In this document: positions 1 through 41,290 of the stretch, piece after piece
How the letters are laid out: every line of letters begins with the position of its first letter
How positions within the stretch are numbered: position 1 is the stretch's first letter
Origin: Patescibacteria group bacterium
Lineage (GTDB): Bacteria > Omnitrophota > Gorgyraeia > Gygaellales > Profunditerraquicolaceae
DNA length: 64,000 bases
Assembly (NCBI GenBank): GCA_035506195.1
Contig: DATJPV010000028.1
Location: 8,711 to 72,710 of the forward strand
Direction: 5' to 3'
Notes under the pieces: generated by a model
Database searches by the model: none
The model's input: only the letters and a program-made list of their open reading frames with translations
What the model was told of the DNA's origin: nothing
Translations under genes and position numbers: made by a program

Positions 1-13
1 TACAGTCTTCTTT

Positions 14-874
14 TTGTTGCCTGAACCGACACATAAAGAGGTCGGCCATACACAAAAAAACGGGCTCCCGGCAGGGGTATATATGTGCACGCTGTTAGGC
101 GGCCTACTGATGGTTGTTTCTTATGCGGCACCGATCAACCTGGCAATGTTCATTGAAAGCGAAAGCAGGATGTATACAAACCAAACCCCTCTCCTGGCGA
201 CGCAGGAAGAGTTACGGCGATTCTTAACTGAAGGTATCGTATCAGCATCAATCCAAGACTCTTTTTTGAAAAGTGGGATCCAGCTTTCGGGTAAAGCAGT
301 CTTGACGATCGAAGGCACAAGCAAGCAATGGACAATCCTCGACGGGGATAAGAAGTATAGCGCAAGAAAAGAAAACGGCAGGGAAGGCTTGGTTATTTAT
401 ACCGAAAGGCAGGACCGGCCGCGCATTGCCGGCTACTGCCTGTCTCTTATGCTGCTGGCCGGCGTCTTCTCTGGGTTTGCTTTGACTATATCAAGGCGTC
501 GGTTTGGGGCCCTTACCCCGGCAACGGGCATTGGTTCAATGGCTGCCGGCTATGCATTGCTAGGGGGCACCTCGTCTCTGTCCGGAGTCTTGATCGCCAT
601 GGTCTGCCTCGGATTCGGATCGGGCATTCTACTACCGCTTCTTTTGTTACGGGCCACCGAGATGGTCACGGGACACTCGCGCGCCCTTGCTATGGCCGTG
701 TTAAACGCAGGGGTATACTTCGGCCAATTCCTTTCTCCGGTTATTCTGAAATGGCTGGGGTTATGCCAAGCTGCGGGAGGCATATATCGTCAGCAATTTA
801 TCGGACTTGCGCTTGCATTGGGGATTGCCGCGCTCCTGGGAATTCCGAGGCGCCCTTGCTGCGCAACATCGTAA
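14..874 (+). CDS. MFS-transporter-like membrane protein fragment (possibly truncated or pseudogene). The C-terminal ~150 aa resemble the second half of a major-facilitator transporter; the N-terminal part is atypical.
   Basis: Hydrophobic, Gly-rich helices (MAAGYALLGG...GFGSGILLPLL...GVYFGQFLSPVIL) typical of an MFS C-terminal half. Only + strand ORF in a >40 kb minus-strand block. Too short for a 12-TM MFS protein. Confidence 0.3.
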   Translation: MLPEPTHKEVGHTQKNGLPAGVYMCTLLGGLLMVVSYAAPINLAMFIESESRMYTNQTPLLATQEELRRFLTEGIVSASIQDSFLKSGIQLSGKAVLTIEGTSKQWTILDGDKKYSARKENGREGLVIYTERQDRPRIAGYCLSLMLLAGVFSGFALTISRRRFGALTPATGIGSMAAGYALLGGTSSLSGVLIAMVCLGFGSGILLPLLLLRATEMVTGHSRALAMAVLNAGVYFGQFLSPVILKWLGLCQAAGGIYRQQFIGLALALGIAALLGIPRRPCCATS

Positions 875-886
875 TCGCCGCAAACG

Positions 887-2539
887 CTATTCTGCCTTCT
901 CCACTCTTACCAAATACTCGTTTCCCATTTCCTTGACAGGCGTGAGCCGAAAATCGCTGCCCGTAAGACGCTTCATGTCTTTAAGGGATCCCGCCTTGAG
1001 AATGCAGAACGTCCGGGATTGCCGAGACAGAAATTCCCTGACTTTGGCATCAGAGTTAAGAAAAGGAACGGGGTGCGGGCTAAAAAAGGGCGTGCCCGGA
1101 ATGTCGATCACGGCAACGTTTTTATCCGTATAATACCGCACCCCCCGAGTAAACATTTTGGAAACGATTATCGTATTATCCACTGCGCAATGACCCAGCA
1201 GATACTCTGCCATGCCCTTTGAAGAAACGTACGGGTCGATATCCTTGCTGAGGAAGGGGATCACGCACAGCGACAGAGGCAAAAGCGAGGTAAGTACGTA
1301 TGCGCCTTTTAAGAAATAGCGCCGCGCAGTAAAAAGAGCGAACGCAATGGATACAACCAGCCATAATCCCGCTAAGACATAAACCGGCAGCAGCGACGAA
1401 AGGTACCGCGAGGCCCTGGAGGAAGCCACCAGGAGCGCTATCGCTAACAACACACAGAAGGCAAACGTCATCCATGAAGCCAGAAAAAACAGACGGGCCC
1501 TGTTCTTAGGCGCCTTGATGTCGCCGATGAAATTCCCCGTGGTCAAGGCAAGGGCGGGAAAAAGGGGGAAAATATAGCTGGCTAATTTAGAATGCGCAAC
1601 CTGAAAAACGGAGAAGGTAACGACGATCCAGGAAGCCAAGAAAAGGTCCAACGGTTCCTTGTTCTTTACCGCCCTGTAGAACAGGATCGCTAACGCAGCC
1701 AAGGTAAACAAACTCCAGGGGAAAACCCCTAGGATCATGGTAAGGGGATAAAAATACCAGGAGTCGTTAAAGGAGTGTTCCGCTTCAAAGAGACGCCGGA
1801 TGTGACAGTTGACAAAAAACTCATGAACAAAACCATTACCGTAGTGCGTTACCATGAAAATGTACCAGGGGAAGGTAATCAAAACGAAAAGCATAGTCCC
1901 CCATAAGAACCTCTTGCAAAATATACGGTTCAATTCTTTCCTGACAGCCAGAAAGATACCCACCACACACAGTGGTATGATAAGTCCCAGGGGGCCCTTG
2001 GTAAGCACGGCGGCGCCGGCAAAGACAAAAAATAGGAAAACTCCCAGGTTCTGCCTACTGTTGCGCACGTACCCGGCCCAAAAGGAAAGGAGCGCTAAAA
2101 GTATCCAGACAGAGAAAATCATATCCGTAAAAACGGTACGGGCTAAACCGATATAAAAGCCACCCGATGCCAAGATAAGACTTGAGAGGAGGGCTTTTCT
2201 GCGGTCTCCAAAACCAAAAAGAGCAAAACAATATGTCCCCACCACCCCAATAGCCGCAAACACTGCCGGGAAAAACCGCGCGCCGAAACTAGAAACACCG
2301 AATAAAACAAAGGCGATGCGTAAAAGCCAATAAAGAAAAATGGGCTTTTCAAACTGCGGCGCGTCAAATAGATACGGAGTCATCCAGCTGCAATGCCGCA
2401 CCATCTCCTTCGCCGTCTGAACGTAAAACACTTCATCGGGGCTGGTAAGGCTGATAATACCGTTACCCCACACGAAAAAGAAATACGCCACAATGACAAG
2501 AAAAACCATATGCACGATGTGCTTATTGGTAAGTGACAT
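887..2539 (-). CDS. GT39/GT83 family glycosyltransferase (ArnT/PMT-like, lipid-linked sugar transferase), polytopic membrane protein
   Basis: N-terminal motif ...SPDEVFYVQTAKEM...W..P...APQFEKPIFLYWL... matches the ArnT/dolichyl-phosphate-mannose mannosyltransferase signature. Many TM helices. Start may be the internal Met at 2509. Confidence 0.7.
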   Translation of the reverse strand: MSLTNKHIVHMVFLVIVAYFFFVWGNGIISLTSPDEVFYVQTAKEMVRHCSWMTPYLFDAPQFEKPIFLYWLLRIAFVLFGVSSFGARFFPAVFAAIGVVGTYCFALFGFGDRRKALLSSLILASGGFYIGLARTVFTDMIFSVWILLALLSFWAGYVRNSRQNLGVFLFFVFAGAAVLTKGPLGLIIPLCVVGIFLAVRKELNRIFCKRFLWGTMLFVLITFPWYIFMVTHYGNGFVHEFFVNCHIRRLFEAEHSFNDSWYFYPLTMILGVFPWSLFTLAALAILFYRAVKNKEPLDLFLASWIVVTFSVFQVAHSKLASYIFPLFPALALTTGNFIGDIKAPKNRARLFFLASWMTFAFCVLLAIALLVASSRASRYLSSLLPVYVLAGLWLVVSIAFALFTARRYFLKGAYVLTSLLPLSLCVIPFLSKDIDPYVSSKGMAEYLLGHCAVDNTIIVSKMFTRGVRYYTDKNVAVIDIPGTPFFSPHPVPFLNSDAKVREFLSRQSRTFCILKAGSLKDMKRLTGSDFRLTPVKEMGNEYLVRVEKAE

Positions 2540-3275
2540 TGCCGCTCCTGGCTAATAGTTCACTAACGGTTACGCACCGATATCCGCGTTTTCTTAATTG
2601 TTCGACGAGCCTGAAAATAGTTTTGACGGTTTCTTGACGGTTGCCGCCCTCAACCGTGAAAACGCCCCCGCTGTCATGGAATAGGATAATATCACCCGGC
2701 CGGACATGATGCACGAGGAACCTGAGAATATACTTCTCGTCAAAGGTCACCCAATCTTTCGAATTCAACGACCACAATATTACTCTATATCCCATTGCGT
2801 TAATTTGTTTTTTTTCTGCGCTGGTAAGCCAGGCCTTGGGGGGCCTAAAATAACGCGTGGTCTTGCCGGTGATAGACTTGATGATGTTTTCGGCGACCTT
2901 TACCTCCCTTTCGAGTTCATACGGCTTATAATATAAAAGCACATGATGGTCATAGGAATGATTCTCGATTTCATGCCCTTCCGCGGCAACCCGCCTGGCT
3001 ATCTCGGGATATTGCTGCACATGTTCTCCGAGCATGAAAAAGGTGGCCTTCGCGTCCGAGCGCTTCAATTCATCCAGGATAGCGGGGGTCCATACCGGCG
3101 AGGGGCCGTCATCAAAGGTAAGCGCCACTAGTTTATCCGGCACGTTAACCCGATACACCGTACCTCTACGTACCAGCACTGCCTGATCAAAAAAGACGGT
3201 AAACGCTACAAAGGCAAGGCAGCATGTTACAAAGGAGCACATAAAAATGACGGCGAGTTTCTTTTTGTTCCCCAT
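2523..3275 (-). CDS. Polysaccharide deacetylase (NodB/CE4 family), N-terminal membrane anchor
   Basis: TFDDGPSP...ATFFMLGEHV...HEIENHSYDHH motifs of the NodB homology domain; N-terminal TM helix. Confidence 0.75.
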   Translation of the reverse strand: MGNKKKLAVIFMCSFVTCCLAFVAFTVFFDQAVLVRRGTVYRVNVPDKLVALTFDDGPSPVWTPAILDELKRSDAKATFFMLGEHVQQYPEIARRVAAEGHEIENHSYDHHVLLYYKPYELEREVKVAENIIKSITGKTTRYFRPPKAWLTSAEKKQINAMGYRVILWSLNSKDWVTFDEKYILRFLVHHVRPGDIILFHDSGGVFTVEGGNRQETVKTIFRLVEQLRKRGYRCVTVSELLARSGNVTYQ

Positions 3276-3288
3276 CTAGGGTGTCCTT

Positions 3289-4116
3289 TTAGCGCAAGGC
3301 TCCATAGGAAACCTTTTCGGCCAGGCGATATCCTGCGTACTTGTCCATCATATACCCTACTTCCCGTACGGCGTTATGATCGCGCCTCGCTCCAACCGGA
3401 CGCACATGCCTGACCGGCAAACAGTCGATAATGCCCATATTGGCATATCCGCACACAGAGCGGGCAAAGAGATCATAACCCCATCCCCAATAATTTTTTT
3501 CTGCCTCCATCTTATTCCAAAAACGCACCCAAGCCTCTGACGTAAAGACCGGCACCATAATTTCCACAAAATCAACATAACGCCCAACTTTATACGTTTT
3601 ATTCTGAAGCGTAATATCCCAGGTGAAATAAGAATCGGCTGTCAGCGCAGGCTGCGCAAGCTCTATGTTGTTTGTCTGCATTATGTTAACAAATTCGCTG
3701 GGCCTGAAATCAACAACATCGATATCGTCGCACCACAGGAAGAGATAGTCATAGTTGCTGCATACGGAAGGAGTAATGTATTTTTTCAGAAAGTAGAAAT
3801 GCAGTCCCTTTTCGCGTATAACAACGCACTTCCGGAAGATGTCTTCGTCAAATGAGGTATCGTCATACGCAAAAATTATATACTCAAACTGTTCGCACCC
3901 GAAGCGCCCAATAATTTTTTTAAGCCAAGGCTTGCCGTCCTCCCCTACCGGCGACGCATAGAGATAGCGGCCCCGCGGCTGTCGTTGGCGACCAGGAGCG
4001 GCCCTGTTATACAGACTGGTTTCTTTTTTCATCCTGCGGACATGCAGGAATTTTCTCCATCGTTTAAAAAGCTTAGGCCGCCGAAAAAAATCTATGGCGC
4101 TTCCGATTGCGGTCAT
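3289..4116 (-). CDS. Hypothetical protein, DUF707-like / putative nucleotide-sugar transferase-like
   Basis: ORF with an acidic DDIDVVD motif (DXD-like); sits between glycan enzymes. Start chosen at the internal Met to avoid overlap with the upstream gene. No confident family assignment. Confidence 0.4.
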   Translation of the reverse strand: MTAIGSAIDFFRRPKLFKRWRKFLHVRRMKKETSLYNRAAPGRQRQPRGRYLYASPVGEDGKPWLKKIIGRFGCEQFEYIIFAYDDTSFDEDIFRKCVVIREKGLHFYFLKKYITPSVCSNYDYLFLWCDDIDVVDFRPSEFVNIMQTNNIELAQPALTADSYFTWDITLQNKTYKVGRYVDFVEIMVPVFTSEAWVRFWNKMEAEKNYWGWGYDLFARSVCGYANMGIIDCLPVRHVRPVGARRDHNAVREVGYMMDKYAGYRLAEKVSYGALR

Positions 4117-4120
4117 GCTA

Positions 4121-4837
4121 CTATGTCTCCAAACATTTTTGCAGATACGCCGGTAAAAGCTCCACCTTTTTGGCGATCTGCGCATTAAGCAGAATTGCTA
4201 TACGGGTATTATCGCTTGCGGAAAAAATAGTATAGCGCTTCAAACAAAAGGTATCTTTCAAATGCTCTGCAATCATCTCTTCAACAGGACGATGGACGTC
4301 ATCAACTACGATCATCTTTACGTCCTTAAGAAGGGGGGGGATTAACGAAAAGAATGCCTTTGAATCGCGCCTATCCTTGCCTATAGCTGCCGGGCCATCG
4401 TAAAAAAGGAACTCGATATTCGTAATCCCTTGCAAGTTCTTTCTGATGAGCCTGTCATCATACCAATCCCCCCTCAAGGGGACGCGCCGCACAAACCCCC
4501 AGGGGAGAAAAAGAAAAGACAGGGCAATATTAAACTTGAAATAATAGTACAGGTGCTGTTCAAACGAAATGAATGTCCCGCCGAACTTGTGTACATACTC
4601 AGCGATATAGTGTGTGCTTCTCCCCGAACCAAATTCAACGATGGTCTTTGGTTTGACTATATACAATAACTGCTGAAGAATAAGCCAGAACTCATAGCAT
4701 TTTGTCGGCCACGTTTTTAAGCCGATGGCATGTCGTTTTTTTAATTTCCACCCGTCGAAGGCGTATTTGATCTGCCTTGCATACCATCGAGCCGTATAGG
4801 GCTTGTGTGGATTGCGAGGATCTGAAGAGCGAAACAT
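4121..4837 (-). CDS. Class I SAM-dependent methyltransferase, Methyltransf_24-like (glycan O-methyltransferase-like)
   Basis: Motif I-like IVEFGSGRSTHYIAE and a VVDDVH acidic motif. This family is common in LPS/capsule clusters. Confidence 0.55.
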   Translation of the reverse strand: MFRSSDPRNPHKPYTARWYARQIKYAFDGWKLKKRHAIGLKTWPTKCYEFWLILQQLLYIVKPKTIVEFGSGRSTHYIAEYVHKFGGTFISFEQHLYYYFKFNIALSFLFLPWGFVRRVPLRGDWYDDRLIRKNLQGITNIEFLFYDGPAAIGKDRRDSKAFFSLIPPLLKDVKMIVVDDVHRPVEEMIAEHLKDTFCLKRYTIFSASDNTRIAILLNAQIAKKVELLPAYLQKCLET

Positions 4838-5574
4838 TATTTTTTAACTCCTATGATGCCCGCGAAATTATACCAAGTAAAAAATGTATCGACTGTCTCA
4901 AACCCGCTGCGGCGCAATAACATAAGGTTCTCATCGAGTCGATAAGGAATTAAAACATTCTCCAGGGCTTCTCTTTTACGCGCAATCTCAAGCTTTGAGT
5001 AACCCCGTCGTTCTTTAAAAGCATGGTACAAATCAATAAATAACCTATTAGTCAAAGAATCTTTCCCGAGGATCTTGTCTACGATAATAAGCGCCCCGCC
5101 CTTTTGCAGGCTCTGGTAGATATTTTGAATCAGCGCGTCTCTTTGCAGAGGCCGTACAAACTGTAAGGTCAAGACAAGCAGGACAACGGATGCCTTTTCC
5201 ATGCGGAAAGGGCAATTAAGGTCTGCCTCGCGCAGGGAAACATTCTTCCACAACTTCTGTTCTCTCATTCTCTGCTTTGCCGCAGCCAGCATATGGGGAG
5301 AGCTGTCAACTCCAACCATCTTTACCTTGTTGTTGCGTAACGCCCTGACGATATTGCACATCGTAGTCCCTGTCGAACATCCCAAGTCATAAACCGACGT
5401 ATTCGCGGCTGCAAAGGACTTGGCTAGTTCTACTATCATGCGCTGGACCTCTTCGTAAAAAGGAACACTGCGTTCCAGCATTTCATCAAAAACTGAAGTT
5501 ACCTTTTCGTCAAAGACAAAGTCACCCACCTTTTTTTTCGTCGCAAAAAGCATGTCTTTATATTTCTTCGGCAT
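4837..5574 (-). CDS. cmoA-like: CmoA-family protein (carboxy-S-adenosyl-L-methionine synthase homolog)
   Basis: Strong collinear similarity to E. coli CmoA: VYDLGCS.G, DSSPHM, LTLQF, GGAL, GYSKLEI..KR..LENV, SGF, NF. Start is likely the MPKKYKDM or MLFATKKK Met. Confidence 0.75.
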   Translation of the reverse strand: MPKKYKDMLFATKKKVGDFVFDEKVTSVFDEMLERSVPFYEEVQRMIVELAKSFAAANTSVYDLGCSTGTTMCNIVRALRNNKVKMVGVDSSPHMLAAAKQRMREQKLWKNVSLREADLNCPFRMEKASVVLLVLTLQFVRPLQRDALIQNIYQSLQKGGALIIVDKILGKDSLTNRLFIDLYHAFKERRGYSKLEIARKREALENVLIPYRLDENLMLLRRSGFETVDTFFTWYNFAGIIGVKK

Positions 5575-6556
5575 GCACAGGCTCCTTCCTTGGATAATAA
5601 TGATCGGCGTAATCGTCGCATAGGCTGTAGTGTTGCCTAAAGGCATCTAAAAATATCATATGCGTGGGGCACTGGCATGTTTCTGCGGGGCAAGGGCGCG
5701 GCCCTGTCGCTAAACGGAGTCCTCCGGAAAGCAGGTCGTCAATCGAACCAAGCTTTTCCGTAAAGCAGCGCATTACTGTGCCGTCTTTATAGAGATTTAT
5801 CATATCCGACCCGGCATAACATAACGATCCCTTGGTGCGCTTTCCATACTGATATTCGAATTCAAGATCAGAGTAATAGTAGCGTCTTATTATGCCCAGG
5901 GTCCTCTTGGAATAAGCCTCAGGAAATACCGTCTTAATATCCATCAGTCTGCAGAGATTCTTATGGAGCCTCTTAAGCGGCCGCGGAACACGCGGTTGAT
6001 AACGGCCCAACAACAGGATGGGCTTTAAAAGGATGCCTTCGCTCCTAAAACGGCTGACGAACGACCCCAGTTGCCCTGCCCTTTCCGGCGTGACCACCAT
6101 TGTCGCAAACGCGCGCGAGCCGTACCGTTTAAGTTTAAGCATGTGCGTTATAAACTGTTCGATGCCGACAAAATCGGGATGAAAACTACAGTTAAAAACT
6201 GCCTTCGAGGGGTTGATGTGAGCCATATATACATCGGGGTCGAGGGAGTTATTCGTGATGAATTCAAAGCGGCTTACGTTCGGCAGGCCGCAGATGTAAA
6301 AACATATCTTCTGCGCCCAGTTATCGGCGAATATCTCTCCATCGAAATTCGCCTTTACCAACAGCCTGTCCTCAACCGCCCGCAACCTATCCCAAAGATT
6401 GCTGGCCTGGGTAAAATTATCGGCAGTAAAATCAACTTGCCGCACGCCGGCTTGATTACAGTAACGGCAGCGATAATTACAGCGGATGCGTCGTTTATCA
6501 TGTGGCAGAAAATCGCGAAAATTTATCCGCAAAGTCCCTGCCTGGGTTATTCTCAT
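5558..6556 (-). CDS. Radical SAM domain protein
   Basis: CNYRCRYC (CX3CX2C) 4Fe-4S/SAM cluster motif about 25 aa from the N-terminus; ~330 aa; embedded in the glycan cluster. Confidence 0.65.
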   Translation of the reverse strand: MRITQAGTLRINFRDFLPHDKRRIRCNYRCRYCNQAGVRQVDFTADNFTQASNLWDRLRAVEDRLLVKANFDGEIFADNWAQKICFYICGLPNVSRFEFITNNSLDPDVYMAHINPSKAVFNCSFHPDFVGIEQFITHMLKLKRYGSRAFATMVVTPERAGQLGSFVSRFRSEGILLKPILLLGRYQPRVPRPLKRLHKNLCRLMDIKTVFPEAYSKRTLGIIRRYYYSDLEFEYQYGKRTKGSLCYAGSDMINLYKDGTVMRCFTEKLGSIDDLLSGGLRLATGPRPCPAETCQCPTHMIFLDAFRQHYSLCDDYADHYYPRKEPVHAEEI

Positions 6557-7680
6557 AATAAGTGTCTTCTTATCCTATTAAGCTCAGACGCTCGCTGCCT
6601 CGGCGATACGTCGTGATACTTCTCGATGAAGGGCACCAATTTCATGGCGCAGGCAACGGCCTCGTCCATATCTAAATATTCAAAAAGGCCGAGCCGGCCG
6701 GCGGGGCATACGTTCGGTAAAGAGACGACGTAAGAAAGATATTTTTGGAACAATGCCTCGTTTCCTCCCGTGTGTACCGGGTACATCGGCACTTCTCCGT
6801 TACGGACAGCACAGGGCTGCTGGTACTGGATCAAATCGGGGGCCTGGACCTGGCGGTGCAGTATTCTGAAATTAGTTTTTCTTATAAACCTTGGGTGTTG
6901 AGGCAGATTAATGCCTCCGTATCTTTCCTCTTCCCATGTTTCGCCAGGGGCATACATAAACTTGGAGCTGCGATAATTGAGCCGTCCGTACCGGTATCCG
7001 GATATTTCATCGATAGGTGCGGTTGAAACGATGAGATCAAACTCCTTAGCATCCAATCTATTTACGTTTTTTTGAAGGGATATCCCCCGGCTCATCCGTT
7101 CTAGCCACACAGAATATCCCTCGATAGGCAAACCCTGCCATTCGCCTTTAAAAAGCTCTTCGTTATTGCACTCACGTAGCATCAATCTCTTGGGAGCCCA
7201 ATGAGCCGAAAGCTCATCCGGAGGGACACCCCACATTTTACGCGTATAGTTACTGATAAAGTATTTATATAATGTTTTACCGAACACACAGATACAGGCG
7301 GTTTCGAAATTCGATTGATTTATCTTACGGGGCCTTGCCTTCAATTCCTTCATTATTTTAGCGGCATCGGGTAAGAGGGTAATTGCGCGCAGGGTAATCG
7401 GGAAAGGGAGGAGCCGGCCCTTGATAATAACCCCTTTGTAATGCCGGTAGCCATTGAAAGCAGAAAATTTTTCGACAAATGCCTTCACTTCCTCGTCGCA
7501 GGTATGGAAAATTCTTGGGCCGCATGGTTCATATAATAAGCCCCACTCGTTGCGGTCGCTTATGCATAACCCGCCAATCCGCTTGTTCTTTTCGAAAAGA
7601 GAGACCTTGTGTCCCCGGTCAACTAATAGCCGTGCTAAGGAACAGCCGGTAAGTCCTGCGCCGAGAATGCCTATCTTCAT
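6553..7680 (-). CDS. glf: UDP-galactopyranose mutase
   Basis: N-terminal FAD Rossmann MKIGILGAGLTGC...EK..RIGG; conserved RIFHT, RYGRLNYRSSKF and GRLGLFEYLDMDEAV regions match Glf. Confidence 0.85.
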   Translation of the reverse strand: MKIGILGAGLTGCSLARLLVDRGHKVSLFEKNKRIGGLCISDRNEWGLLYEPCGPRIFHTCDEEVKAFVEKFSAFNGYRHYKGVIIKGRLLPFPITLRAITLLPDAAKIMKELKARPRKINQSNFETACICVFGKTLYKYFISNYTRKMWGVPPDELSAHWAPKRLMLRECNNEELFKGEWQGLPIEGYSVWLERMSRGISLQKNVNRLDAKEFDLIVSTAPIDEISGYRYGRLNYRSSKFMYAPGETWEEERYGGINLPQHPRFIRKTNFRILHRQVQAPDLIQYQQPCAVRNGEVPMYPVHTGGNEALFQKYLSYVVSLPNVCPAGRLGLFEYLDMDEAVACAMKLVPFIEKYHDVSPRQRASELNRIRRHLL

Positions 7681-8319
7681 TTACTCGTCGTCATCCTTCC
7701 ATGGAAGAAAAGGACTGTCCTGGGCTAGGCCGCCTAAGGTAACCGGGGAAGCCAGATATGGCCGCAGACCAAAGCTATCGACTTTGGCGCCAAGCAAATC
7801 GCTGCCCATTTGATTCCAACGCAACGAGCCGGGATCCATCTGTCTGGCTTCCCGATAACAGGCTTCCATAAGTTCACAGCCTGCCGGGGCCTTGATTATT
7901 GCTGCACAAATTTTGGTCCCGCCGTTTACGTTATGTTCAGTCGCAAATACATATTCGTTCCCAAAGTCTAACTGCTTTAAGCACACCACATCTAAATCGC
8001 TCCATATGCCGCCTTTATCCAAAAGAAGTTTATACCTAAAGAGATTCGAAAACCCCGCATAGCTACCTTTGCCGACTTTTCGTTTGTATTTAAAAATCGT
8101 CTCCTTGGGCACCATTTTATTTGCGTCTTTTACCACTACGCCCTCCGGGACATCCCGCATTGTCGCAAAGGCGTAAAGATGAACGGCATGGCCACGGGCG
8201 AGAAATGAGTTAAGAGACAGCCGCTCCATCAGGGATAAACTTTTACCTATCCATAATCCCTGGATTATCTCATTGTTTTTCTTCATGGGGTATGGGCAAT
8301 TTTTAATCGCGGCGAGCAA
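7681..8319 (-). CDS. Glycosyltransferase, DXD sugar-binding motif family (GT32-like)
   Basis: IIQGLWIG N-terminal motif and DLDVVCL (DXD) characteristic of the Gly_transf_sug / alpha-1,4-galactosyltransferase-like family. Confidence 0.55.
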   Translation of the reverse strand: MLAAIKNCPYPMKKNNEIIQGLWIGKSLSLMERLSLNSFLARGHAVHLYAFATMRDVPEGVVVKDANKMVPKETIFKYKRKVGKGSYAGFSNLFRYKLLLDKGGIWSDLDVVCLKQLDFGNEYVFATEHNVNGGTKICAAIIKAPAGCELMEACYREARQMDPGSLRWNQMGSDLLGAKVDSFGLRPYLASPVTLGGLAQDSPFLPWKDDDE

Positions 8320-8361
8320 GATGTAAATGCTCTTATCGAAGAATAAGAAAGGCGTCTAAAG

Positions 8362-8433
8362 CTGCCCCGCATGGACTCGAACCATGATAGTCAGATCCAG
8401 AATCTGAAGTCCTACCGGTTAGACGACAGGGCA
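8362..8433 (-). tRNA. tRNA-Gln (anticodon CTG)
   Basis: Reverse complement folds as a cloverleaf: acceptor TGCCCTG/CGGGGCA, anticodon stem TCAGA/TCTGA with loop TTCTGGA (CUG), T-arm CATGG-TTCGAGT-CCATG. 72 nt, CCA not encoded. Confidence 0.8.
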
Positions 8434-8548
8434 AAGCGTTTATCTAGAGAGATTACCCGCCCAGGCTATGCCTAAAACAGGACGGGACAGATGCGTGTAT
8501 TATTATAATATCCTCTGGTGCTTCTGACAAGCAGGTTTTTACCCGTTT

Positions 8549-9289
8549 CTATTGGCTGTCTTTGAGCTTACGAAAAAGATACTCCCGGTAGCCGCCACCC
8601 AGATAATCGGTGGGATAATCGGCCTTCCAGTAGGCATTCACCACTCTTTTCTTTGCCTCTTCCCCCATGCTGGAGATAATGCGGACTGTTTTGTCCTTGC
8701 CAATCTCAAGGCTAAACGTTACCTCGGGCTTGATGACCTGATACCAATCGGCGGGGAGCTGACGGACACCGGTCTTAGCATCAAAGAATGCCGCTTCGCC
8801 TTTCTGAGCAAGTTCAGGATGCGCTTTATAATACGCATTAACCTGTTCGGGGGTAATCGACAATTCCTGCATCCACTGCGGGGCTTGCCCGGCCAGAGAA
8901 TCCGGCTCAACGATATCAACCACGTTAAAATTCACCGGGTCAAGTTCCCACTTAGCCCAGGGGTTTGAGTTACGGGACACGATAACCTGACAAAGCCTTC
9001 CATCGGGAGCGCGCAACGTAACCAGGATATAATCTACGCCTGTAACTTCGCGGGTGTTAAGGTTAACCACGTCTACCACCTGATAGTCTTGTTCATAGAT
9101 CCCCAACTTTTTTGAGAGAAAGAAAATAAGCTCCTCTTCTATATCGGCATCGGACAAATAGATGCCGTCGGTCACCAGCGGCCGATGAGAAAAGCGTCTG
9201 ATCTGGACTTTCTGATATATAGTATACACCCCAAACCAGAGGGCGATAATACACAGCACCTCTGCAAATAATATCCATACGTTTCTCAT
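8549..9289 (-). CDS. Hypothetical membrane-anchored protein (N-terminal TM helix, large extracytoplasmic domain)
   Basis: Long ORF with an N-terminal hydrophobic helix (WILFAEVLCIIALWFGVYTIY). No recognisable family. Confidence 0.4.
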   Translation of the reverse strand: MRNVWILFAEVLCIIALWFGVYTIYQKVQIRRFSHRPLVTDGIYLSDADIEEELIFFLSKKLGIYEQDYQVVDVVNLNTREVTGVDYILVTLRAPDGRLCQVIVSRNSNPWAKWELDPVNFNVVDIVEPDSLAGQAPQWMQELSITPEQVNAYYKAHPELAQKGEAAFFDAKTGVRQLPADWYQVIKPEVTFSLEIGKDKTVRIISSMGEEAKKRVVNAYWKADYPTDYLGGGYREYLFRKLKDSQ

Positions 9290-9297
9290 CGTACAGG

Positions 9298-9687
9298 TTA
9301 AAACGGTCCTTCGTACTTTTGCTTTGGCTTTGCGTATTCCTGTTTGCGCCGCAGGAGCTGAGCCTTGTGCAGGTCCATACAGTTGATAACGAGCGGTTTA
9401 TTCACTTCAAGGAATTCGATGCCGATGACAAAAGAACTATCGTGCCTTTTGAGTTCATTGCTATACTTGACCTTGCCTTTGCCTGTAAGATGCTCTCCGC
9501 AGACCTCGGTGAGCACGTCAAATGCCACTACGCTACCCGGTTCCAGCCGATGGTTTGCACGGACGCAAAACCCGCCAAAACTAAGATTAGCTAATATACC
9601 CCGGATTGCCTGCTGGGCTCCAGATTCGGGCATCAGGTTTGCGAAGCCTTCGATTTCGTGCCGGGCATGGTTACGCGCTTGATGCAT
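9298..9687 (-). CDS. PilZ domain protein (putative c-di-GMP receptor)
   Basis: RxxxR (RNHAR) followed by (D/N)xSxGG (NLSFGG), the hallmark PilZ c-di-GMP-binding motifs. Confidence 0.55.
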   Translation of the reverse strand: MHQARNHARHEIEGFANLMPESGAQQAIRGILANLSFGGFCVRANHRLEPGSVVAFDVLTEVCGEHLTGKGKVKYSNELKRHDSSFVIGIEFLEVNKPLVINCMDLHKAQLLRRKQEYAKPKQKYEGPF

Positions 9688-9693
9688 CTGGTC

Positions 9694-10092
9694 TTACGGC
9701 CTCCTCTCCAGCAAACCGATGATGCGATTGATCTTATCCACCAAAGAATGTACAAGGTCTTTCTTGCGGATAGTAATGCGCACGGAATAGTTCCCTGCCA
9801 ACACCTCATCGAGCATGGACTCAATGCGTTGTAAAGGGCCGAGGCTGCGGTGTAAGAGCACGCACGTACTTGCCAGAAGAATAAAAATGACGCCCAGGAA
9901 ACTGACTTGCATGATCAGAAAATTGGTCTTCCAGGCAGAAGAATACTGAAAGTTGGTCTGTAACTCCGAAACCATCTTCCAGGCAGAATAAAAATTGACA
10001 ACTACCAGGACGGCAATGTAGACCAACGCAAAATGCACGAACTTAAAAGTGTGCCTGCGCAACCAGAACACCGCTCTGCGTCTCTCTCTCAT
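9694..10092 (-). CDS. Small membrane protein with HAMP-like linker
   Basis: Two TM helices followed by an amphipathic HAMP-like segment (LQRIESMLDEVLAGNYSVRI). Confidence 0.35.
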   Translation of the reverse strand: MRERRRAVFWLRRHTFKFVHFALVYIAVLVVVNFYSAWKMVSELQTNFQYSSAWKTNFLIMQVSFLGVIFILLASTCVLLHRSLGPLQRIESMLDEVLAGNYSVRITIRKKDLVHSLVDKINRIIGLLERRP

Positions 10093-10107
10093 ATGCGCTC
10101 CTCTTGA

Positions 10108-10521
10108 TTAATAGTAACCCTGCGTCCCCGACCAGTTACCGGCTGCATCCAGGTTAATCTGATATGCGTCGCGGCCCTGGGGAGGCTTGCCGCCAGACGT
10201 GCAGCGCGTGGCCTCGATGGTAAAATCGACGGCGTTGGCGGCAGTGAGGGCAAAAGAATACCAATGGCTGGGCATGCACGTTTCCGGATACACGATAGCC
10301 AGGTCCGCCGAGTTGCCGGTATACGTAAAATGCTCCATGAAATAGGCGAATTGGGCTCTGCGTATCTGCCCAAGGTTCATTTTGGCTTCGGCGGTACGGC
10401 TCTTTTCGACAATGGCCCCAAACTGCGCCATTCCTATAAGCGACAGGACGGAAATAATGATGAGCGTCACTGTTAATTCCATAAGCGTAAAGCCGGGGGC
10501 AAGGAGGCGATGTGCACGCAT
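10108..10521 (-). CDS. Prepilin-type N-terminal cleavage/methylation domain protein (type IV pilin / pseudopilin)
   Basis: GFTLMELTVTLIIISVL class III signal (G|FTLxE) shortly after the start Met; globular C-terminus with Cys pair. Confidence 0.65.
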   Translation of the reverse strand: MRAHRLLAPGFTLMELTVTLIIISVLSLIGMAQFGAIVEKSRTAEAKMNLGQIRRAQFAYFMEHFTYTGNSADLAIVYPETCMPSHWYSFALTAANAVDFTIEATRCTSGGKPPQGRDAYQINLDAAGNWSGTQGYY

Positions 10522-10523
10522 GT

Positions 10524-10721
10524 CTACCAGAGGTTTTCGCGTATCCACTCATCCGCTTTTTTGATCGAATACCAGAAGCTTGAAGTATCTTCGCTAAGGC
10601 CTTCAACGGTAGCAGAGGTAGTATTCGCCGCGCCTTCGGCTGTGCCCTTGGCGGTCTGACAGCCAGCCAGTAGTAGAGCTATCCCGGATAACGCGCATAG
10701 CAGCAGGACGATCTTTTTCAT
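10524..10721 (-). CDS. Small lipoprotein
   Basis: MKKIVLLLCALSGIALLLAGC lipobox signal peptide, then ~45 aa hydrophilic. Confidence 0.4.
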   Translation of the reverse strand: MKKIVLLLCALSGIALLLAGCQTAKGTAEGAANTTSATVEGLSEDTSSFWYSIKKADEWIRENLW

Positions 10722-10723
10722 GC

Positions 10724-12037
10724 TCAGCTCCTTTTTACCCATTTCATCAGTCGGGCTTTGGTACGCTCTTTGCCTAAATAATATATGACTTCAAATAACC
10801 CCGGGCCTACGGTCTTGCCGGTCAGGGCTACGCGGATAGGGTGGATCAGGGCCTTTGCAGGGATTCCTAATTCCGCGACCAATTCCCGAAAAGCGGTCTC
10901 GATGGTGGCGATGTCAAAATGCGGCAACGCCTCCATCCTTTTTATGAAGAGCGTAAATTCCCGGGATAAATCCGCCGAGAGAAATTTCTCCTGTGCCTTC
11001 GGATCAACCGCGGGTTCGGCGATGAAGAAAAAGTCAGCCCATTCGGGGAAGTCATTTATCGTCGTAAGCCGCTCTTTAAATAATTTTACTAAAGAAACCA
11101 GGTAATTGCCATCGAAATGTTCCCTGTCGATATAGCCTCGTTCTGCCAACAGCGGGACAAGTTGCTGCGCTAGTTCCTGCTCGTCTATTTTTTTCAAATA
11201 CTGGTTGTTCAACCAATTAAGCTTATCCATATCGAAGGCGGCCGCGGTTTTTTTCACGTCGGTTATATCAAACAGCTTGATCGCCTCTGCGGTTTCAATC
11301 ACCTCCCGATCATCCCCTGGCGACCAACTCAACAACAACAGATAATTCACCAAGGCCGCCGACAGATACCCCATCTTCCGGTAATCGGAAATAGCGGTTG
11401 CGCCGGTCCTTTTAGAGAGCCTGCCCCCTTCTTTATCCATGATCAAAGGCAGGTGCGCAAACGCCGGCACCGGCAATCCCATGGCTTCATACAATAAGAC
11501 CTGCTTCGGAGTGTTGGAGATGTGATCGTCGCCCCTGATAACGTGAGTAATCTGCATCGTGGCATCATCTACCACGCAGGCAAAATTATAGGTAGGGGTG
11601 CCGTCGGACTTCATAAGCACTTGATCTTTGATGACCTGCGTGTCGAACTCGATCTTACCGTGGATAAGGTCATGAACGACGACCTGGCGGGGCTGTACTT
11701 TAAAAATAATCGCCTTGCCTCGCGGCTGGCCATCCTCGGTGAACGACTCCTCCTCGTAGGCCCGGCCATCTGCCAAGAGCTTTTCGGCGTATGCGCGGTA
11801 GGCGTCGAAGCGTTGACTCTGGAAATAGAGCTCGTCCCAATCGAACCTAAGCCATTTCAGGCTATCCAGAATCTCATCAACGTATCTTTGTTCCGAGCGC
11901 ACCTTATCGGTGTCCTCTATCCTTAATACGAATTTTCCTTGCGTTGCCCTGGCGTACATCCAGTTGAATACCGCCGTCCTGGCTCCGCCGATGTGTAAAT
12001 ACCCGGTGGGGCTTGGCGCAAAACGAACCCTGACCAT
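10724..12037 (-). CDS. gltX: Glutamyl-tRNA synthetase
   Basis: MVRVRFAPSPTGYLHIGGARTAVFNW (HIGH class I motif) and KLSKR (KMSKS) present. Confidence 0.9.
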   Translation of the reverse strand: MVRVRFAPSPTGYLHIGGARTAVFNWMYARATQGKFVLRIEDTDKVRSEQRYVDEILDSLKWLRFDWDELYFQSQRFDAYRAYAEKLLADGRAYEEESFTEDGQPRGKAIIFKVQPRQVVVHDLIHGKIEFDTQVIKDQVLMKSDGTPTYNFACVVDDATMQITHVIRGDDHISNTPKQVLLYEAMGLPVPAFAHLPLIMDKEGGRLSKRTGATAISDYRKMGYLSAALVNYLLLLSWSPGDDREVIETAEAIKLFDITDVKKTAAAFDMDKLNWLNNQYLKKIDEQELAQQLVPLLAERGYIDREHFDGNYLVSLVKLFKERLTTINDFPEWADFFFIAEPAVDPKAQEKFLSADLSREFTLFIKRMEALPHFDIATIETAFRELVAELGIPAKALIHPIRVALTGKTVGPGLFEVIYYLGKERTKARLMKWVKRS

Positions 12038-12057
12038 CGAGCACCTCTAGCTTTTGT

Positions 12058-12600
12058 TTAGCGAGACCCCAAAGCCAACTGTTGGCCCTTCAAAAGCGCC
12101 TGCTGATTTATCTGGACTAGATGCTTTTTATCCGCGGGCGCAATTTCTTCGATAACCTCGAGCACACTGTCAAGTGCAACAATTTCTCTCTTGCCCACAA
12201 AGAACCCGAGAGCAACCATATTAGCCACCTTGATGTTGCCTAGCTCAATGGCAATGTCTGTAAAAGGCTGTCGCAAGGCTGTCGCGGCAACAGGCGGAGC
12301 GTCTTCGGCAAGAGAGCTATTAATAATACAGAGGCCGCCTTTTTCTACCCGGCGCCCGAACCGTTCCAGCGAAGGGTTGTTCATAATGATCAGCGTATCG
12401 GCTTTGTTAATGTACGGCGATCCTATCTCTGCGTCAGAAATAACCGTCATGCAATGCGCGGTCCCTCCGCGCACCTCCGGGCCATACGCCGGAAGCCAGG
12501 TGACGTGCTTGCCTTCACGGACTGCTGCCTCCGCCAAGATCTTACCTAACAACATGATCCCCTGGCCGCCGCTGCCGGCGGCTATTATTTTTTCTACCAT
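12058..12600 (-). CDS. korC: 2-oxoacid:ferredoxin oxidoreductase, gamma subunit
   Basis: Pyruvate/2-oxoglutarate ferredoxin oxidoreductase gamma signature (GSGGQG... at the N-terminus); operon context with alpha/beta/delta. Confidence 0.8.
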   Translation of the reverse strand: MVEKIIAAGSGGQGIMLLGKILAEAAVREGKHVTWLPAYGPEVRGGTAHCMTVISDAEIGSPYINKADTLIIMNNPSLERFGRRVEKGGLCIINSSLAEDAPPVAATALRQPFTDIAIELGNIKVANMVALGFFVGKREIVALDSVLEVIEEIAPADKKHLVQINQQALLKGQQLALGSR

Positions 12601-12605
12601 TGTGC

Positions 12606-13334
12606 TTATTTTATCCTACCCAAAGGAAATTCTTTTATCATGGTGTCCCTGATCCAGGCCAGGGCTTGTACCGGCGTAAGCCCCCAGTAGGTAGGGCAGG
12701 GAGAGAGCATCTCTACCAATGAGAACCCTGCTCCGTCGATCTGGTTCTTGAACGCCTGCATGACCGCTTTTTTTGCTTTCATAATCTCCTGAGGGGAATG
12801 CAGGGAAACCCTCTCTACGTACGTAACCGCCGGCAGGCCGGCAAGCATCTCGGAGATCTTTAAGGGGTAGCCTTCTAAACGCGAGTTTCTCCCCTGGAGT
12901 GTGGTCGCAGTCTTCTGGCCGATCAACGTCGTCGGAGCCATCTGTCCTCCGGTCATCCCATAGACCGCATTGTTGATAAAAATAACGGTGACGTTTTCTC
13001 CGCGATTTGCCGCATGGATAGTTTCATTGGTACCGATGGCGGCCAAATCGCCGTCGCCTTGATAGGTAAATATGATGTTATCCGGCCTCACGCGCTTGAG
13101 GGCGGTAGCGATGGCCAATGCCCGGCCGTGAGCCGCCTCTGAGCAATCAAAATCCCAATAGTCATAAGCAACCACCGCGCATCCCACCGGAGCCACGGCG
13201 ATAACACGCTGACGAATCTCCAGTTCGTCTACCGCCTCCGCGATCAAGCGGTGCGCAATGCCATGGCCGCAGCCAGGACAGTAATGAGTGGAGGTATCCC
13301 GCAATGAAGGAGGGGGAGCGAATATTTTTCCCAT
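12606..13334 (-). CDS. korB: 2-oxoacid:ferredoxin oxidoreductase, beta (TPP-binding) subunit
   Basis: CPGCGHG Cys motif and TPP-binding GDG...N region. Confidence 0.85.
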
Positions 13335-41275: not shown

Positions 41276-41290
41276 GCTCTCTCCTAAAAT

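What the first reader, a model, noticed from the sequence alone, without database searches (positions are those of the whole stretch)
887..8319. Glycan-modification cluster combining Glf, GT39/GT32 transferases, NodB deacetylase, a CmoA-like Cx-SAM synthase homolog, a Methyltransf_24 enzyme and a radical SAM enzyme
Eight co-directional genes, tightly packed or overlapping, encode a lipid-linked sugar transferase (ArnT-like), a CE4 deacetylase, a DXD-motif protein, two different SAM-utilising enzymes, a radical SAM enzyme, UDP-galactopyranose mutase and a GT32-like transferase. UDP-Galp mutase implies a galactofuranose-containing polymer. Glf together with radical SAM and CmoA-family chemistry is not a described capsule or LPS pathway. 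The cluster ends at a tRNA-Gln, a common boundary for accessory islands.
Basis: partly seen in the sequence, partly recalled or inferred. Interest (0 to 1): 0.65.

Follow-up and report, generated by a model that had tools for sequence, protein, structure and literature searches.

The report
Glycan operon with carboxy-SAM and radical-SAM cassettes
An uncultured bacterium carries a sugar-polymer operon built from two conserved, uncharacterised enzyme sets: a mutase-like flavoenzyme with a rare radical-SAM enzyme, and a carboxy-SAM synthase with a catechol-O-methyltransferase-like transferase, which suggests that sugars are a new target of carboxymethylation.

Summary
The eight co-directional genes are real and the family calls are largely right. 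Comparative context splits the cluster into nested parts.

- **Cassette A (GLF-like flavoenzyme, then a rare radical-SAM enzyme):** these two genes are adjacent in 9 of 9 testable loci from several phyla. A DUF707 putative glycosyltransferase follows in 7 of 9. The contexts are always LPS or polysaccharide clusters.
- **The GLF-like protein is not a canonical UDP-galactopyranose mutase:** it scores below the equivalog cut-off. H60 and Y185 are replaced throughout the subfamily, and R280 is not conserved. Galactofuranose is therefore not established.
- **Cassette B (CmoA plus a 238-aa COMT-fold protein, "p238"):** the CmoA is authentic, scoring above the TIGR00740 cut-off with Arg199 kept. The pair recurs in 18 of 26 non-redundant metagenome loci, against 0 of 15 for outgroup methyltransferases. 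These loci hold GT2, GT4 and Wzx genes, and some hold AsnB.
- **Clade-specific residues in p238:** it has the basic residues K46 and R73.
- **Lineage-specific genes:** GT32, CE4 and the ArnT-like GT-C occur only in this genome.

Best reading: a radical-remodelled, probably furanose, sugar is carboxymethylated with Cx-SAM and installed on a surface glycan. No paper I could search describes this. All evidence is genomic and structural.

The parts
8502..8530 (-). Sigma-70-like promoter (TTGTCA-17-TATAAT, 11 of 12 matches) upstream of tRNA-Gln. It may drive the tRNA and the operon together.
   Evidence: This is a consensus match only; the number of such sites in the region is not above shuffles.
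8361..8433 (-). tRNA-Gln (anticodon CTG), 41 bp upstream of the first cluster gene
7681..8319 (-). GT32-like glycosyltransferase (Gly_transf_sug, DXD 'DLD'). Lineage-specific accessory gene.
   Evidence: 31.2 bits against a cut-off of 23. Absent next to the cassette in L004, L006, L008, L042 and L045.
6553..7680 (-). GLF-like FAD enzyme (UDP-galactopyranose-mutase fold) of a divergent, rSAM-linked subfamily. First gene of cassette A.
   Evidence: Always directly upstream of the rSAM.
5558..6556 (-). Radical-SAM enzyme. CX3CX2C at residues 26-33, and five invariant C-terminal Cys (C246, C264, C289, C294, C296), which probably hold one auxiliary Fe-S cluster (twitch-like). Core of cassette A.
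4837..5574 (-). CmoA, carboxy-SAM (Cx-SAM) synthase (245 aa). Overlaps the rSAM stop by 17 nt. First gene of cassette B.
4121..4837 (-). p238: COMT-fold, probably cation-dependent class I transferase. SAM motif E68-G70-G72, acidic triad D147/D179/D180, clade-specific K46 and R73. Proposed Cx-SAM-dependent sugar carboxymethyltransferase.
3289..4116 (-). DUF707 protein (275-aa form; DXD-like 'DDID'). Putative GT-A glycosyltransferase; last gene of the conserved core.
2523..3275 (-). CE4 (NodB-type) deacetylase with an N-terminal membrane anchor. Motifs TFDDG, HSYDH, RPP and LFHD can be read in the sequence. Lineage-specific accessory gene.
887..2539 (-). GT-C glycosyltransferase of the PMT/ArnT type (550 aa, 'PDE' after TM1). 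It would use a lipid-phosphate-linked sugar donor on the outer face of the membrane. Lineage-specific accessory gene.

Best explanation
This is a chromosomal surface-glycan decoration operon of an uncultured bacterium. NCBI labels the MAG 'Patescibacteria group', but the nearest relatives are Omnitrophota. The operon is assembled from two independently conserved cassettes plus lineage-specific accessory genes.

**Cassette A.** A UGM-fold flavoenzyme and a translationally coupled twitch-type radical-SAM enzyme together make an unusual activated sugar. Most likely a pyranose-to-furanose ring contraction is followed or preceded by a radical oxidation, dehydration or epimerisation. DUF707, a predicted GT-A glycosyltransferase, then transfers the product.

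**Cassette B.** CmoA converts SAM and prephenate into carboxy-SAM. The adjacent COMT-fold protein p238 uses carboxy-SAM, not SAM, to put a carboxymethyl (glycolate ether) group on a sugar hydroxyl. It would hold a vicinal diol on a divalent cation through D147/D179/D180 and bind the donor's extra carboxylate with K46 and/or R73.

**Accessory genes.** In this genome GT32, a periplasm-facing CE4 deacetylase and an ArnT/PMT-like GT-C were added, probably to extend, de-N-acetylate and attach the glycan outside the cytoplasmic membrane.

**Shown:** gene content, family membership, the conserved adjacencies, the folds and the residue patterns. **Inferred:** every substrate and reaction, the order of steps, and the metal and carboxylate roles.
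For: **Cassette A**
- The rSAM family has only 25 members among 5.8 billion proteins.
- In all 9 loci with upstream sequence, a GLF-like gene lies directly before it, overlapping or within a few nucleotides. The loci come from Omnitrophota, Geobacter/Pelobacter and Planctomycetia MAGs.
- DUF707 follows in 7 of 9.
- The contexts are glycan loci: LpxK/GT9/GT4/GT2 (L006); GT4/Wzx/GT2 (L011); carbamoyltransferase/ABC exporter/GT4 (L010); GalE-like epimerase (L004, L013).
- The rSAM model has pLDDT 91. The best PDB folds are anSME, MoaA, viperin, EpeE, BtrN, DesII and SpeY, at TM scores of only 0.45-0.5.

**Cassette B**
- CmoA scores 248 bits against the 193 cut-off and keeps Arg199, the Cx-SAM carboxylate ligand.
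- 18 of 26 non-redundant p238-homologue loci have a CmoA or CmoA-like gene within 520 bp. One of these is a 29-aa remnant. The figure for outgroup Methyltransf_24 loci is 0 of 15 (Fisher p = 9e-6, not corrected for phylogeny).
- The pairing persists down to 30-35% identity in both partners.
- Of 76 neighbouring ORFs, 10 are GT2, 6 Wzx, 6 GT4, 3 GDP-mannose dehydratase, 2 AsnB and 2 GT10.
- p238 has a COMT/CCoAOMT fold. K46 and R73 are invariant in the linked clade, while the outgroup has S and A.
- Every known Cx-SAM user recognises the carboxylate with Lys or Arg (PMC4482062, PMC12783734).
- AsnB-like ligases next to the pair (L044, L090) parallel the phage CmoA-CmoX-CmoY logic (PMC12783734).

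**Modularity.** These arrangements all occur: GLF-rSAM-DUF707; GLF-rSAM-p238-DUF707; GLF-rSAM-CmoA-p238(-DUF707); and CmoA-p238 alone.
Against: - There is no biochemical datum; all function is inferred from context, fold and residues.
- Two lineages (L008/L009 and L094) keep p238 without an adjacent CmoA. In L008 the CmoA gene is visibly deleted. So p238 may work with SAM, or rely on a CmoA encoded elsewhere.
- The divergent CmoA-like partners (30-32% identity) score below the TIGR00740 cut-off, and their Arg199 position is shifted or replaced.
- The positions of K46 and R73 relative to the donor methyl were not measured in 3D.
- The GLF-like protein lacks the conserved R280, Y185 and H60 of true UGMs. 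It may not be a mutase of a UDP-sugar at all.
- The operon has no initiating transferase, flippase or polymerase. The GT-C, CE4 and GT32 genes are not conserved with the core, so a single eight-step pathway is not demonstrated.
- I did not establish whether naturally carboxymethylated bacterial sugars have been reported: my literature searches targeted Cx-SAM and CmoA in glycan contexts, not natural carboxymethyl sugars as such.
Confidence: 0.5

Rival explanations
1. CmoA and p238 form a housekeeping tRNA pathway. CmoA supplies Cx-SAM, and p238 is a TrmR/YrrM-like enzyme that replaces CmoB to make cmo5U34 (or mo5U34) in tRNA. The pair merely sits inside glycan operons.
For: - CmoA passes the equivalog model built for the tRNA enzyme.
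- No CmoB-like gene was seen in the locus or among the window ORFs I checked.
- Fold hits of p238 include the tRNA ho5U methyltransferase TrmR, and one homologue is labelled 'YrrM' by JGI.
- A tRNA gene lies directly upstream.
Against: - The pair is embedded between glycan genes in many unrelated clusters (GT2, GT4, Wzx, NDP-sugar enzymes).
- Here it sits between the rSAM and DUF707 with overlapping reading frames.
- COMT and CCoAOMT rank above TrmR in the fold search.
- CmoA was lost in L008 while p238 and the glycan genes stayed.
- The p238 family is very rare, with 40 representative clusters at E<=1e-30 among 1.84 billion. That is unlike a housekeeping tRNA modifier.
Confidence: 0.12
2. p238 is an ordinary SAM-dependent sugar O-methyltransferase. 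The CmoA homologue is a second ordinary methyltransferase, or is functionally unrelated to p238. The glycan is methylated, not carboxymethylated.
For: - Both proteins have class I methyltransferase folds.
- p238 hits Methyltransf_24 and a rhamnosyl O-methyltransferase model weakly.
- L008, L094 and L060 have p238 without an adjacent CmoA.
- O-methyl sugars are common in bacterial glycans (general knowledge).
Against: - CmoA is above the curated equivalog cut-off and keeps Arg199. E. coli CmoA does not methylate (PMC10491745).
- Adjacency is 18 of 26 against 0 of 15 for the nearest non-clade methyltransferases.
- The clade has specific basic residues K46 and R73.
- One CmoA homologue is fused to chorismate mutase, which fits a prephenate-dependent enzyme in this subfamily.
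Confidence: 0.2
3. The eight genes are not one pathway. The five-gene core decorates one glycan. The CE4 plus ArnT-like pair is a separate ArnD/ArnT-style module that de-acylates and transfers an amino sugar from a polyprenyl phosphate to lipid A or another envelope acceptor. GT32 is unrelated.
For: - Only the five core genes recur in relatives.
- CE4 followed by GT-C mirrors the arnD-arnT gene order (general knowledge of the arn operon).
- The best NCBIfam hit of the GT-C is the ArnT model.
Against: - All eight genes are co-directional with overlaps or gaps of at most 13 nt and no convincing internal terminator.
- The ArnT model score is far below its cut-off, 175 against 567.
- The CE4 resembles PgdA, PdaB and NodB, and carries a membrane anchor that would place it outside the cytoplasm, unlike ArnD.
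- No ArnC-like polyprenyl-phosphate glycosyltransferase is present.
Confidence: 0.3
4. The GLF-like protein is a normal UDP-galactopyranose mutase and the polymer simply contains galactofuranose. The radical-SAM enzyme acts on something else, for example a peptide or protein, as anSME does.
For: - GLF Pfam domain; 150-bit match to K. pneumoniae UGM; R174, Y155, W160, Y314 and Y349 kept.
- A GalE-like epimerase lies upstream in L004 and L013.
- The best fold hit of the rSAM is anSME.
Against: - The score is below the TIGR00031 cut-off. H60R and Y185L are invariant, and R280 is replaced by K, C or Q in half of the subfamily.
- The two genes are translationally coupled and never found apart in the loci examined.
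- No sulfatase or precursor-peptide gene was seen nearby.
- The TM score to anSME is only 0.45.
Confidence: 0.15

Closest known systems
CmoA/CmoB (tRNA cmo5U34 pathway of Gram-negative bacteria)
   Same: A bona fide CmoA-family Cx-SAM synthase sits next to a class I methyltransferase-fold protein that would transfer the carboxymethyl group to an oxygen nucleophile.
   Different: The partner is not CmoB. It lacks the CmoB N-terminal domain, gives no Methyltransf_9 or TIGR00452 hit, and has a COMT-like fold with an acidic metal triad. The context is polysaccharide genes, so the predicted acceptor is a sugar rather than tRNA.
Phage CmoA/CmoX/CmoY (5-carboxymethylcytosine and its glycine amide; PMC12783734)
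   Same: CmoA is recruited outside tRNA metabolism and paired with a repurposed methyltransferase. An Arg recognises the donor carboxylate. In some related loci (L044, L090) an asparagine-synthetase-like ligase sits next to the pair, as CmoY does.
   Different: The acceptor would be a glycan instead of DNA. The transferase has a different fold (COMT-like against C5-MTase). The window itself has no AsnB-like gene.
TglE/TglF (3-thiaglutamate) and MccS/MccB-CTD (microcin C-like) Cx-SAM cascades (PMC10491745)
   Same: A two-gene Cx-SAM synthase and transferase cassette embedded in a specialised biosynthetic cluster.
   Different: Those cascades modify a peptide thiol or a peptidyl-nucleotide. TglF is CmoB-like. 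None of them involves carbohydrates.
UDP-galactopyranose mutase Glf with a galactofuranosyltransferase (e.g. Klebsiella O1, mycobacterial galactan)
   Same: A UGM-fold FAD enzyme followed by glycosyltransferase(s) in an LPS or polysaccharide locus. Most substrate-binding Tyr and Arg residues are kept.
   Different: It is obligatorily coupled to a radical-SAM enzyme. The subfamily lacks H60 and Y185 and has no conserved R280. It scores below the equivalog cut-off. The transferase is DUF707, not a known Galf transferase family.
Twitch/SPASM radical-SAM enzymes acting on sugars or cyclitols (BtrN, SpeY, DesII) and anSME
   Same: Partial TIM-barrel radical-SAM core with CX3CX2C, plus a C-terminal Cys-rich extension that probably holds an auxiliary cluster. 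These are the best structural neighbours.
   Different: TM scores are only 0.3-0.5 and identity 11-16%. There is no Pfam Radical_SAM or SPASM hit. This is a separate, very small family whose substrate is unknown.
ArnD/ArnT lipid A aminoarabinose module
   Same: A CE4-fold hydrolase gene directly followed by a GT-C (ArnT/PMT-type) transferase gene.
   Different: Both score far from the Arn equivalogs. The CE4 is membrane-anchored and resembles PgdA/NodB. No ArnA, ArnB, ArnC, ArnE or ArnF is present. The pair is not conserved with the core.

Membership tests
CmoA (carboxy-SAM synthase, TIGR00740) | Score above the curated equivalog cut-off | tested here: met
   248 bits against 193.3. The narrower PRK15451 model gives 184 bits against 285, which is not met.
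CmoA (carboxy-SAM synthase, TIGR00740) | Full-length similarity to the solved E. coli and H. influenzae CmoA structures | tested here: met
   4GEK E 3.7e-50 and 1IM8 E 2.6e-48, covering residues 5-244 of 245
CmoA (carboxy-SAM synthase, TIGR00740) | Arg199, the residue that binds the S-carboxymethyl carboxylate (PMC4482062) | tested here: met
   It aligns to R201 of the 245-aa protein. The numbering offset was validated by Phe133.
CmoA (carboxy-SAM synthase, TIGR00740) | Prephenate-dependent conversion of SAM to Cx-SAM | not testable with these tools
   This needs an enzyme assay.
CmoA/CmoB tRNA cmo5U system | A CmoB (Methyltransf_9 / TIGR00452) partner | tested here: not met
   No such hit among the eight genes, the 21-kb source locus, or 30 further window ORFs. 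The rest of the genome was not available.
UDP-galactopyranose mutase (Glf, TIGR00031) | GLF domain plus N-terminal FAD/NAD-binding fold | tested here: met
   PF03275 E 1.5e-33; NAD_binding_8 E 1e-14
UDP-galactopyranose mutase (Glf, TIGR00031) | Score above the equivalog cut-off | tested here: not met
   199.5 bits against 303.75
   R174, Y155, W160, Y314 and Y349 are kept. H60R and Y185L occur in all 8 subfamily members. The R280 position reads R/R/K/C/Q/R/R/K, with an invariant R at +3.
Radical SAM superfamily | CX3CX2C motif and partial TIM-barrel fold | tested here: met
   C26-x3-C30-x2-C33 is invariant. Foldseek probability is 1.00 to anSME, MoaA and viperin. No Pfam PF04055 hit for the window protein.
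Twitch/SPASM auxiliary-cluster radical SAM enzymes | C-terminal Cys set that binds one (twitch) or two (SPASM) extra [4Fe-4S] clusters | tested here: inconclusive
   Five invariant Cys (246, 264, 289, 294, 296) fit one cluster. No SPASM Pfam hit. Cluster binding cannot be shown in silico.
STM4011 family radical SAM (NF038073) | Score above the subfamily cut-off | tested here: not met
   72.7 bits against 200, and only residues 25-163 matched
Cation-dependent class I O-methyltransferases (COMT/CCoAOMT/TylF type; Methyltransf_24/3) | Rossmann-like methyltransferase fold with SAM motif I and an acidic metal triad | tested here: inconclusive
   Fold: COMT is the top hit, E 7.5e-7, TM 0.54-0.58. 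Motif E68-G70-G72, E93, D147 and D179/D180 are invariant. Pfam Methyltransf_24 gives 17.2 bits against 26.3, which is not met. Assigning the triad as metal ligands is by analogy only.
DUF707 (PF05212; predicted GT-A glycosyltransferase) | Pfam score above the gathering cut-off | tested here: met
   105 bits against 24.1. Glycosyltransferase activity is only a literature prediction (PMC3522684). No PDB relative by sequence.
CE4 / NodB polysaccharide deacetylase | Pfam domain and catalytic motifs (TFDDG, H-S/T-xxH, RPP, LxH) | tested here: met
   122.9 bits against 23.1. The motifs are readable in the translation.
ArnT (lipid A Ara4N transferase, NF009784) | Score above the equivalog cut-off | tested here: not met
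   174.7 bits against 567. The broader PMT/PMT_2 GT-C domains are met.

The most novel reading that the evidence does not exclude
Carboxy-SAM may be a general, so far unrecognised donor for envelope glycoconjugates. In this operon a COMT-fold enzyme would O-carboxymethylate a furanose that a UGM-like flavoenzyme and a new radical-SAM enzyme have remodelled. Related CmoA genes appear in three other settings: with p238-like genes in Wzx-type polysaccharide loci, with AsnB-like amidating ligases and nonulosonic-acid genes, and with an LmtA-like lipid A phosphate methyltransferase homologue. Together these hint at a whole family of carboxymethylated, and further amidated, glycans and lipids in uncultured bacteria.
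Probability: 0.35. Interest if true: 0.85.

Novelty: new variant of a known kind. Interest (0 to 1): 0.7.

Why it matters
In the papers I could search, Cx-SAM has only four kinds of natural acceptor: tRNA, a peptide thiol, a peptidyl-nucleotide and phage DNA. A carbohydrate acceptor would add a new class of glycan modification, an ether-linked carboxylate that can be amidated further. It would also supply a compact two-gene cassette for enzymatic carboxymethylation of sugars.

The strictly coupled UGM-like and radical-SAM pair points to an undescribed route to an unusual, probably furanose, sugar. It also gives the plant and bacterial DUF707 family a concrete, testable donor context.

All the proteins are small and soluble-looking, and they can be made from synthetic genes. 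The hypotheses are therefore directly testable even though the organisms are uncultured.

Tried and rejected
- **Literature:** searches for rSAM with UGM or galactofuranose, and for Cx-SAM or CmoA with polysaccharide, glycosyltransferase or gene cluster, found nothing relevant.
- **DUF707:** the papers give only a GT-A prediction and one occurrence in an A. baumannii OC locus. I could not show that glf and DUF707 share that locus.
- **PDB by sequence:** nothing useful for DUF707 or p238.
- **Plasmids:** tblastn of p238 and the rSAM found no match.
- **Fusions:** large p238-containing representatives (P0216, P0218 and others) were checked as possible CmoA or DUF707 fusions. They are not; their N-termini have no Pfam hit and no similarity to DUF707.
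- **Kim et al. 2013 CmoA paper:** not held. Arg199 was taken from PMC4482062 instead.
- **Rejected, tRNA-Gln as an integration boundary:** relatives carry the core at different chromosomal sites without it.
- **Rejected, plasmid or phage origin:** the window contains dnaA, dnaN, parAB, yidC and a GC-skew minimum, so it is chromosomal and near the origin.
- **Not achieved:** a whole-genome check for cmoB, trhO or trhP; 3D distances from K46 and R73 to the donor methyl.

Full report
**Observation.** The window holds eight minus-strand ORFs at exactly the coordinates given, followed upstream by tRNA-Gln(CTG) at 8361-8433. With the starts chosen by gene callers on the source contig, the junctions are overlaps of 1-17 nt or gaps of 0-13 nt.
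- a PMT/ArnT-type GT-C;
- a CE4 deacetylase;
- DUF707;
- a weak Methyltransf_24-like protein, called p238 here;
- CmoA (TIGR00740, 248 bits against a cut-off of 193);
- a radical-SAM protein with CX3CX2C that Pfam does not recognise, and that hits the STM4011 family only weakly;
- a GLF-domain flavoprotein, below the TIGR00031 cut-off at 199.5 against 303.75;
- a GT32-like protein.

The DNA is chromosomal. The same window carries parAB, yidC, an AT-rich gap, dnaA, dnaN and the GC-skew minimum. The identical locus lies on a 124-kb MAG contig that NCBI labels 'Patescibacteria group bacterium', but the nearest relatives are labelled Omnitrophota.

**Cassette A.** The radical-SAM protein belongs to a very small family of 25 hits among 5.8 billion clustered proteins. 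Its invariant residues are C26/C30/C33 and five C-terminal cysteines. I looked at contexts from exact-protein look-ups and from a scan of GTDB species genomes. Every locus with upstream sequence has a GLF-like gene directly before the rSAM. This is 9 of 9 loci, from Omnitrophota, Geobacter/Pelobacter-type and Planctomycetia MAGs. In 7 of 9 a DUF707 gene follows.

The surroundings are glycan loci:
- L006: LpxK, GT9, GT4 and GT2;
- L011: GT4, Wzx and GT2;
- L010: carbamoyltransferase, ABC exporter and GT4;
- L004 and L013: a GalE-like epimerase.

A high-confidence model of the rSAM (pLDDT 91) matches anSME, MoaA, viperin, EpeE, BtrN, DesII and SpeY, but only at TM 0.3-0.5. It is therefore a radical-SAM enzyme with a probable single auxiliary cluster and no close solved relative.

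**The GLF-like partner.** It aligns over its full length with K. pneumoniae UGM and keeps R174, Y155, W160, Y314 and Y349. Across the eight rSAM-linked homologues, however, H60 is always Arg and Y185 is always Leu. The R280 position reads R/K/C/Q, and an invariant Arg-Lys appears three residues later. The list of important UGM residues is from my own recollection, not from a source consulted here. With the sub-threshold equivalog score, this means the protein should not be filed as Glf. 'Galactofuranose' is a hypothesis, not an implication. DUF707 is known in the literature only as a predicted GT-A glycosyltransferase of plants and a few bacteria.

**Cassette B.** CmoA is about 45% identical to E. 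coli CmoA over its whole length. It keeps Arg199, the only side chain that contacts the carboxylate of Cx-SAM in the crystal structure. Its closest homologues (70-84% identity) lie on the same contigs as the rSAM homologues.

The next tier (56-59% identity) lies in quite different polysaccharide clusters, and each member is again followed by a p238 homologue. A pattern scan of JGI metagenome contigs with a p238 alignment gave 26 non-redundant loci with homologues of at least 32% identity:
- 18 have a CmoA or CmoA-like gene within 520 bp, mostly directly upstream on the same strand;
- only one locus with at least 800 bp on both sides lacks it;
- none of 15 loci with more distant Methyltransf_24-like proteins has it (Fisher p = 9e-6, not corrected for shared ancestry).

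The pairing persists where both partners have diverged to 30-35% identity. Those CmoA-like proteins fall below the TIGR00740 cut-off, and their Arg199 position is shifted. Among 76 neighbouring ORFs the commonest families are GT2, Wzx flippases, GT4, radical SAM, GDP-mannose dehydratase, epimerases, AsnB, UDP-glucose dehydrogenase and GT10.

**What p238 looks like.** Its model (pLDDT 83) has the fold of catechol and caffeoyl-CoA O-methyltransferases; TrmR and MnmM rank lower. E68-G70-G72 (SAM motif I), E93, D147 and D179/D180 are invariant, and the outgroup shares them. K46 and R73 are invariant only in the CmoA-linked clade, where the outgroup has Ser and Ala; R73 sits inside motif I, which reads GSG-R-ST. 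Known Cx-SAM users select the donor with Lys or Arg: K91 and R315 in CmoB, and a key Arg in CmoX (PMC4482062, PMC12783734). So these two residues are the obvious candidates. I could not measure their 3D distance to the donor. The family is rare, with 40 representative clusters at E<=1e-30 among 1.84 billion.

**How the cassettes combine.** Four arrangements exist:
- GLF-rSAM-DUF707 (L004, L006, L013);
- GLF-rSAM-p238-DUF707 (L094, and L008/L009, where a 29-aa, 83%-identical N-terminal remnant shows that CmoA was deleted);
- GLF-rSAM-CmoA-p238(-DUF707) (the window, L042, L045, L093);
- CmoA-p238 alone in other polysaccharide loci.

This shuffling is what one expects of a sugar-making cassette and a sugar-decorating cassette. 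GT32, CE4 and the ArnT-like GT-C accompany the core only in the window's own genome.

**Mechanism proposed (inferred).** The flavoenzyme and the radical-SAM enzyme produce an unusual activated sugar, most likely by pyranose-to-furanose contraction plus a radical oxidation, dehydration or epimerisation. CmoA makes Cx-SAM from SAM and prephenate. p238 holds a sugar diol on a divalent cation and transfers the carboxymethyl group. DUF707 installs the sugar. In this genome GT32, a periplasm-facing CE4 and a GT-C extend, de-N-acetylate and attach the glycan outside the membrane.

Points against this reading:
- there is no biochemistry;
- p238 occurs without an adjacent CmoA in two lineages;
- the mutase-like enzyme has an atypical active site;
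- the operon has no initiating transferase, flippase or polymerase.

**Comparison with known systems.** The Cx-SAM cascades described so far are CmoA/CmoB (tRNA), TglE/TglF (a peptide thiol), MccS/MccB (a peptidyl-nucleotide) and phage CmoA/CmoX/CmoY (DNA) (PMC10491745, PMC12783734). Full-text searches found no paper linking Cx-SAM or CmoA to glycans, or radical SAM to UGM or galactofuranose. The present pair works like these cascades. It is not a member of the CmoB, TglF, MccB or CmoX transferase families. AsnB-like ligases beside the pair in L044 and L090 recall CmoY.

**Verdict.** The operon is a new variant of a known kind, a Cx-SAM two-enzyme cascade inside a glycan cluster, joined to an uncharacterised flavoenzyme and radical-SAM pair. 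Interest is 0.7, and the evidence is purely computational.

Noticed in passing
window 40406-47168: Chromosomal replication origin region: parB, parA and yidC on the minus strand, an AT-rich gap at about 43.9-44.5 kb (GC 0.38 in the 42-44 kb bin), then dnaA and dnaN on the plus strand. The cumulative GC skew has its minimum here.
   Followed up: partly
window 27666-27826 (-): 6S RNA (SsrS), 64 bits against a gathering score of 46.
   Followed up: no
window 8502-8530 (-): Near-consensus sigma-70 promoter (TTGTCA-17-TATAAT) upstream of tRNA-Gln. The tRNA is only 41 bp from the first operon gene, so the tRNA and the glycan operon may be co-transcribed.
   Followed up: no
L014-L022 (Elusimicrobia MAG contigs): Three to five tandem paralogues per locus of a distant (22-30% identity) relative of this radical-SAM family. 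Function unknown.
   Followed up: no
L090 and L091, about 1200-12700: Another Omnitrophica CmoA (56% identity) sits in a nonulosonic-acid/aminosugar cluster. The gene order is CMP-NulO synthetase-like, NeuB, epimerase, AsnB-like ligase, CmoA, two class I methyltransferase-like proteins, DegT aminotransferase, SPASM rSAM. This is a second possible glycan use of Cx-SAM with different transferases.
   Followed up: partly
L092 6001-7451: A CmoA homologue whose stop overlaps the start of a membrane PEMT-fold protein. That protein's best NCBIfam hit is the Leptospira lipid A 1-phosphate O-methyltransferase LmtA, at 93 bits, below its cut-off. Possibly a lipid carboxymethylation pair.
   Followed up: no
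P0143 (367 aa): A CmoA homologue fused to a chorismate mutase (CM_2) domain. This fits a built-in prephenate supply for Cx-SAM synthesis.
   Followed up: no
L008 11009-11095 and L009 6972-7058: A 29-codon remnant of the CmoA N-terminus (83% identical) between the rSAM and p238. It shows a recent deletion of cmoA from an otherwise intact cassette.
   Followed up: yes
window 1-12000 compared with 12000-40000: The cluster region has lower GC (0.45-0.49) than the housekeeping genes further in (0.52-0.55). This is compatible with, but not proof of, lateral acquisition.
   Followed up: no
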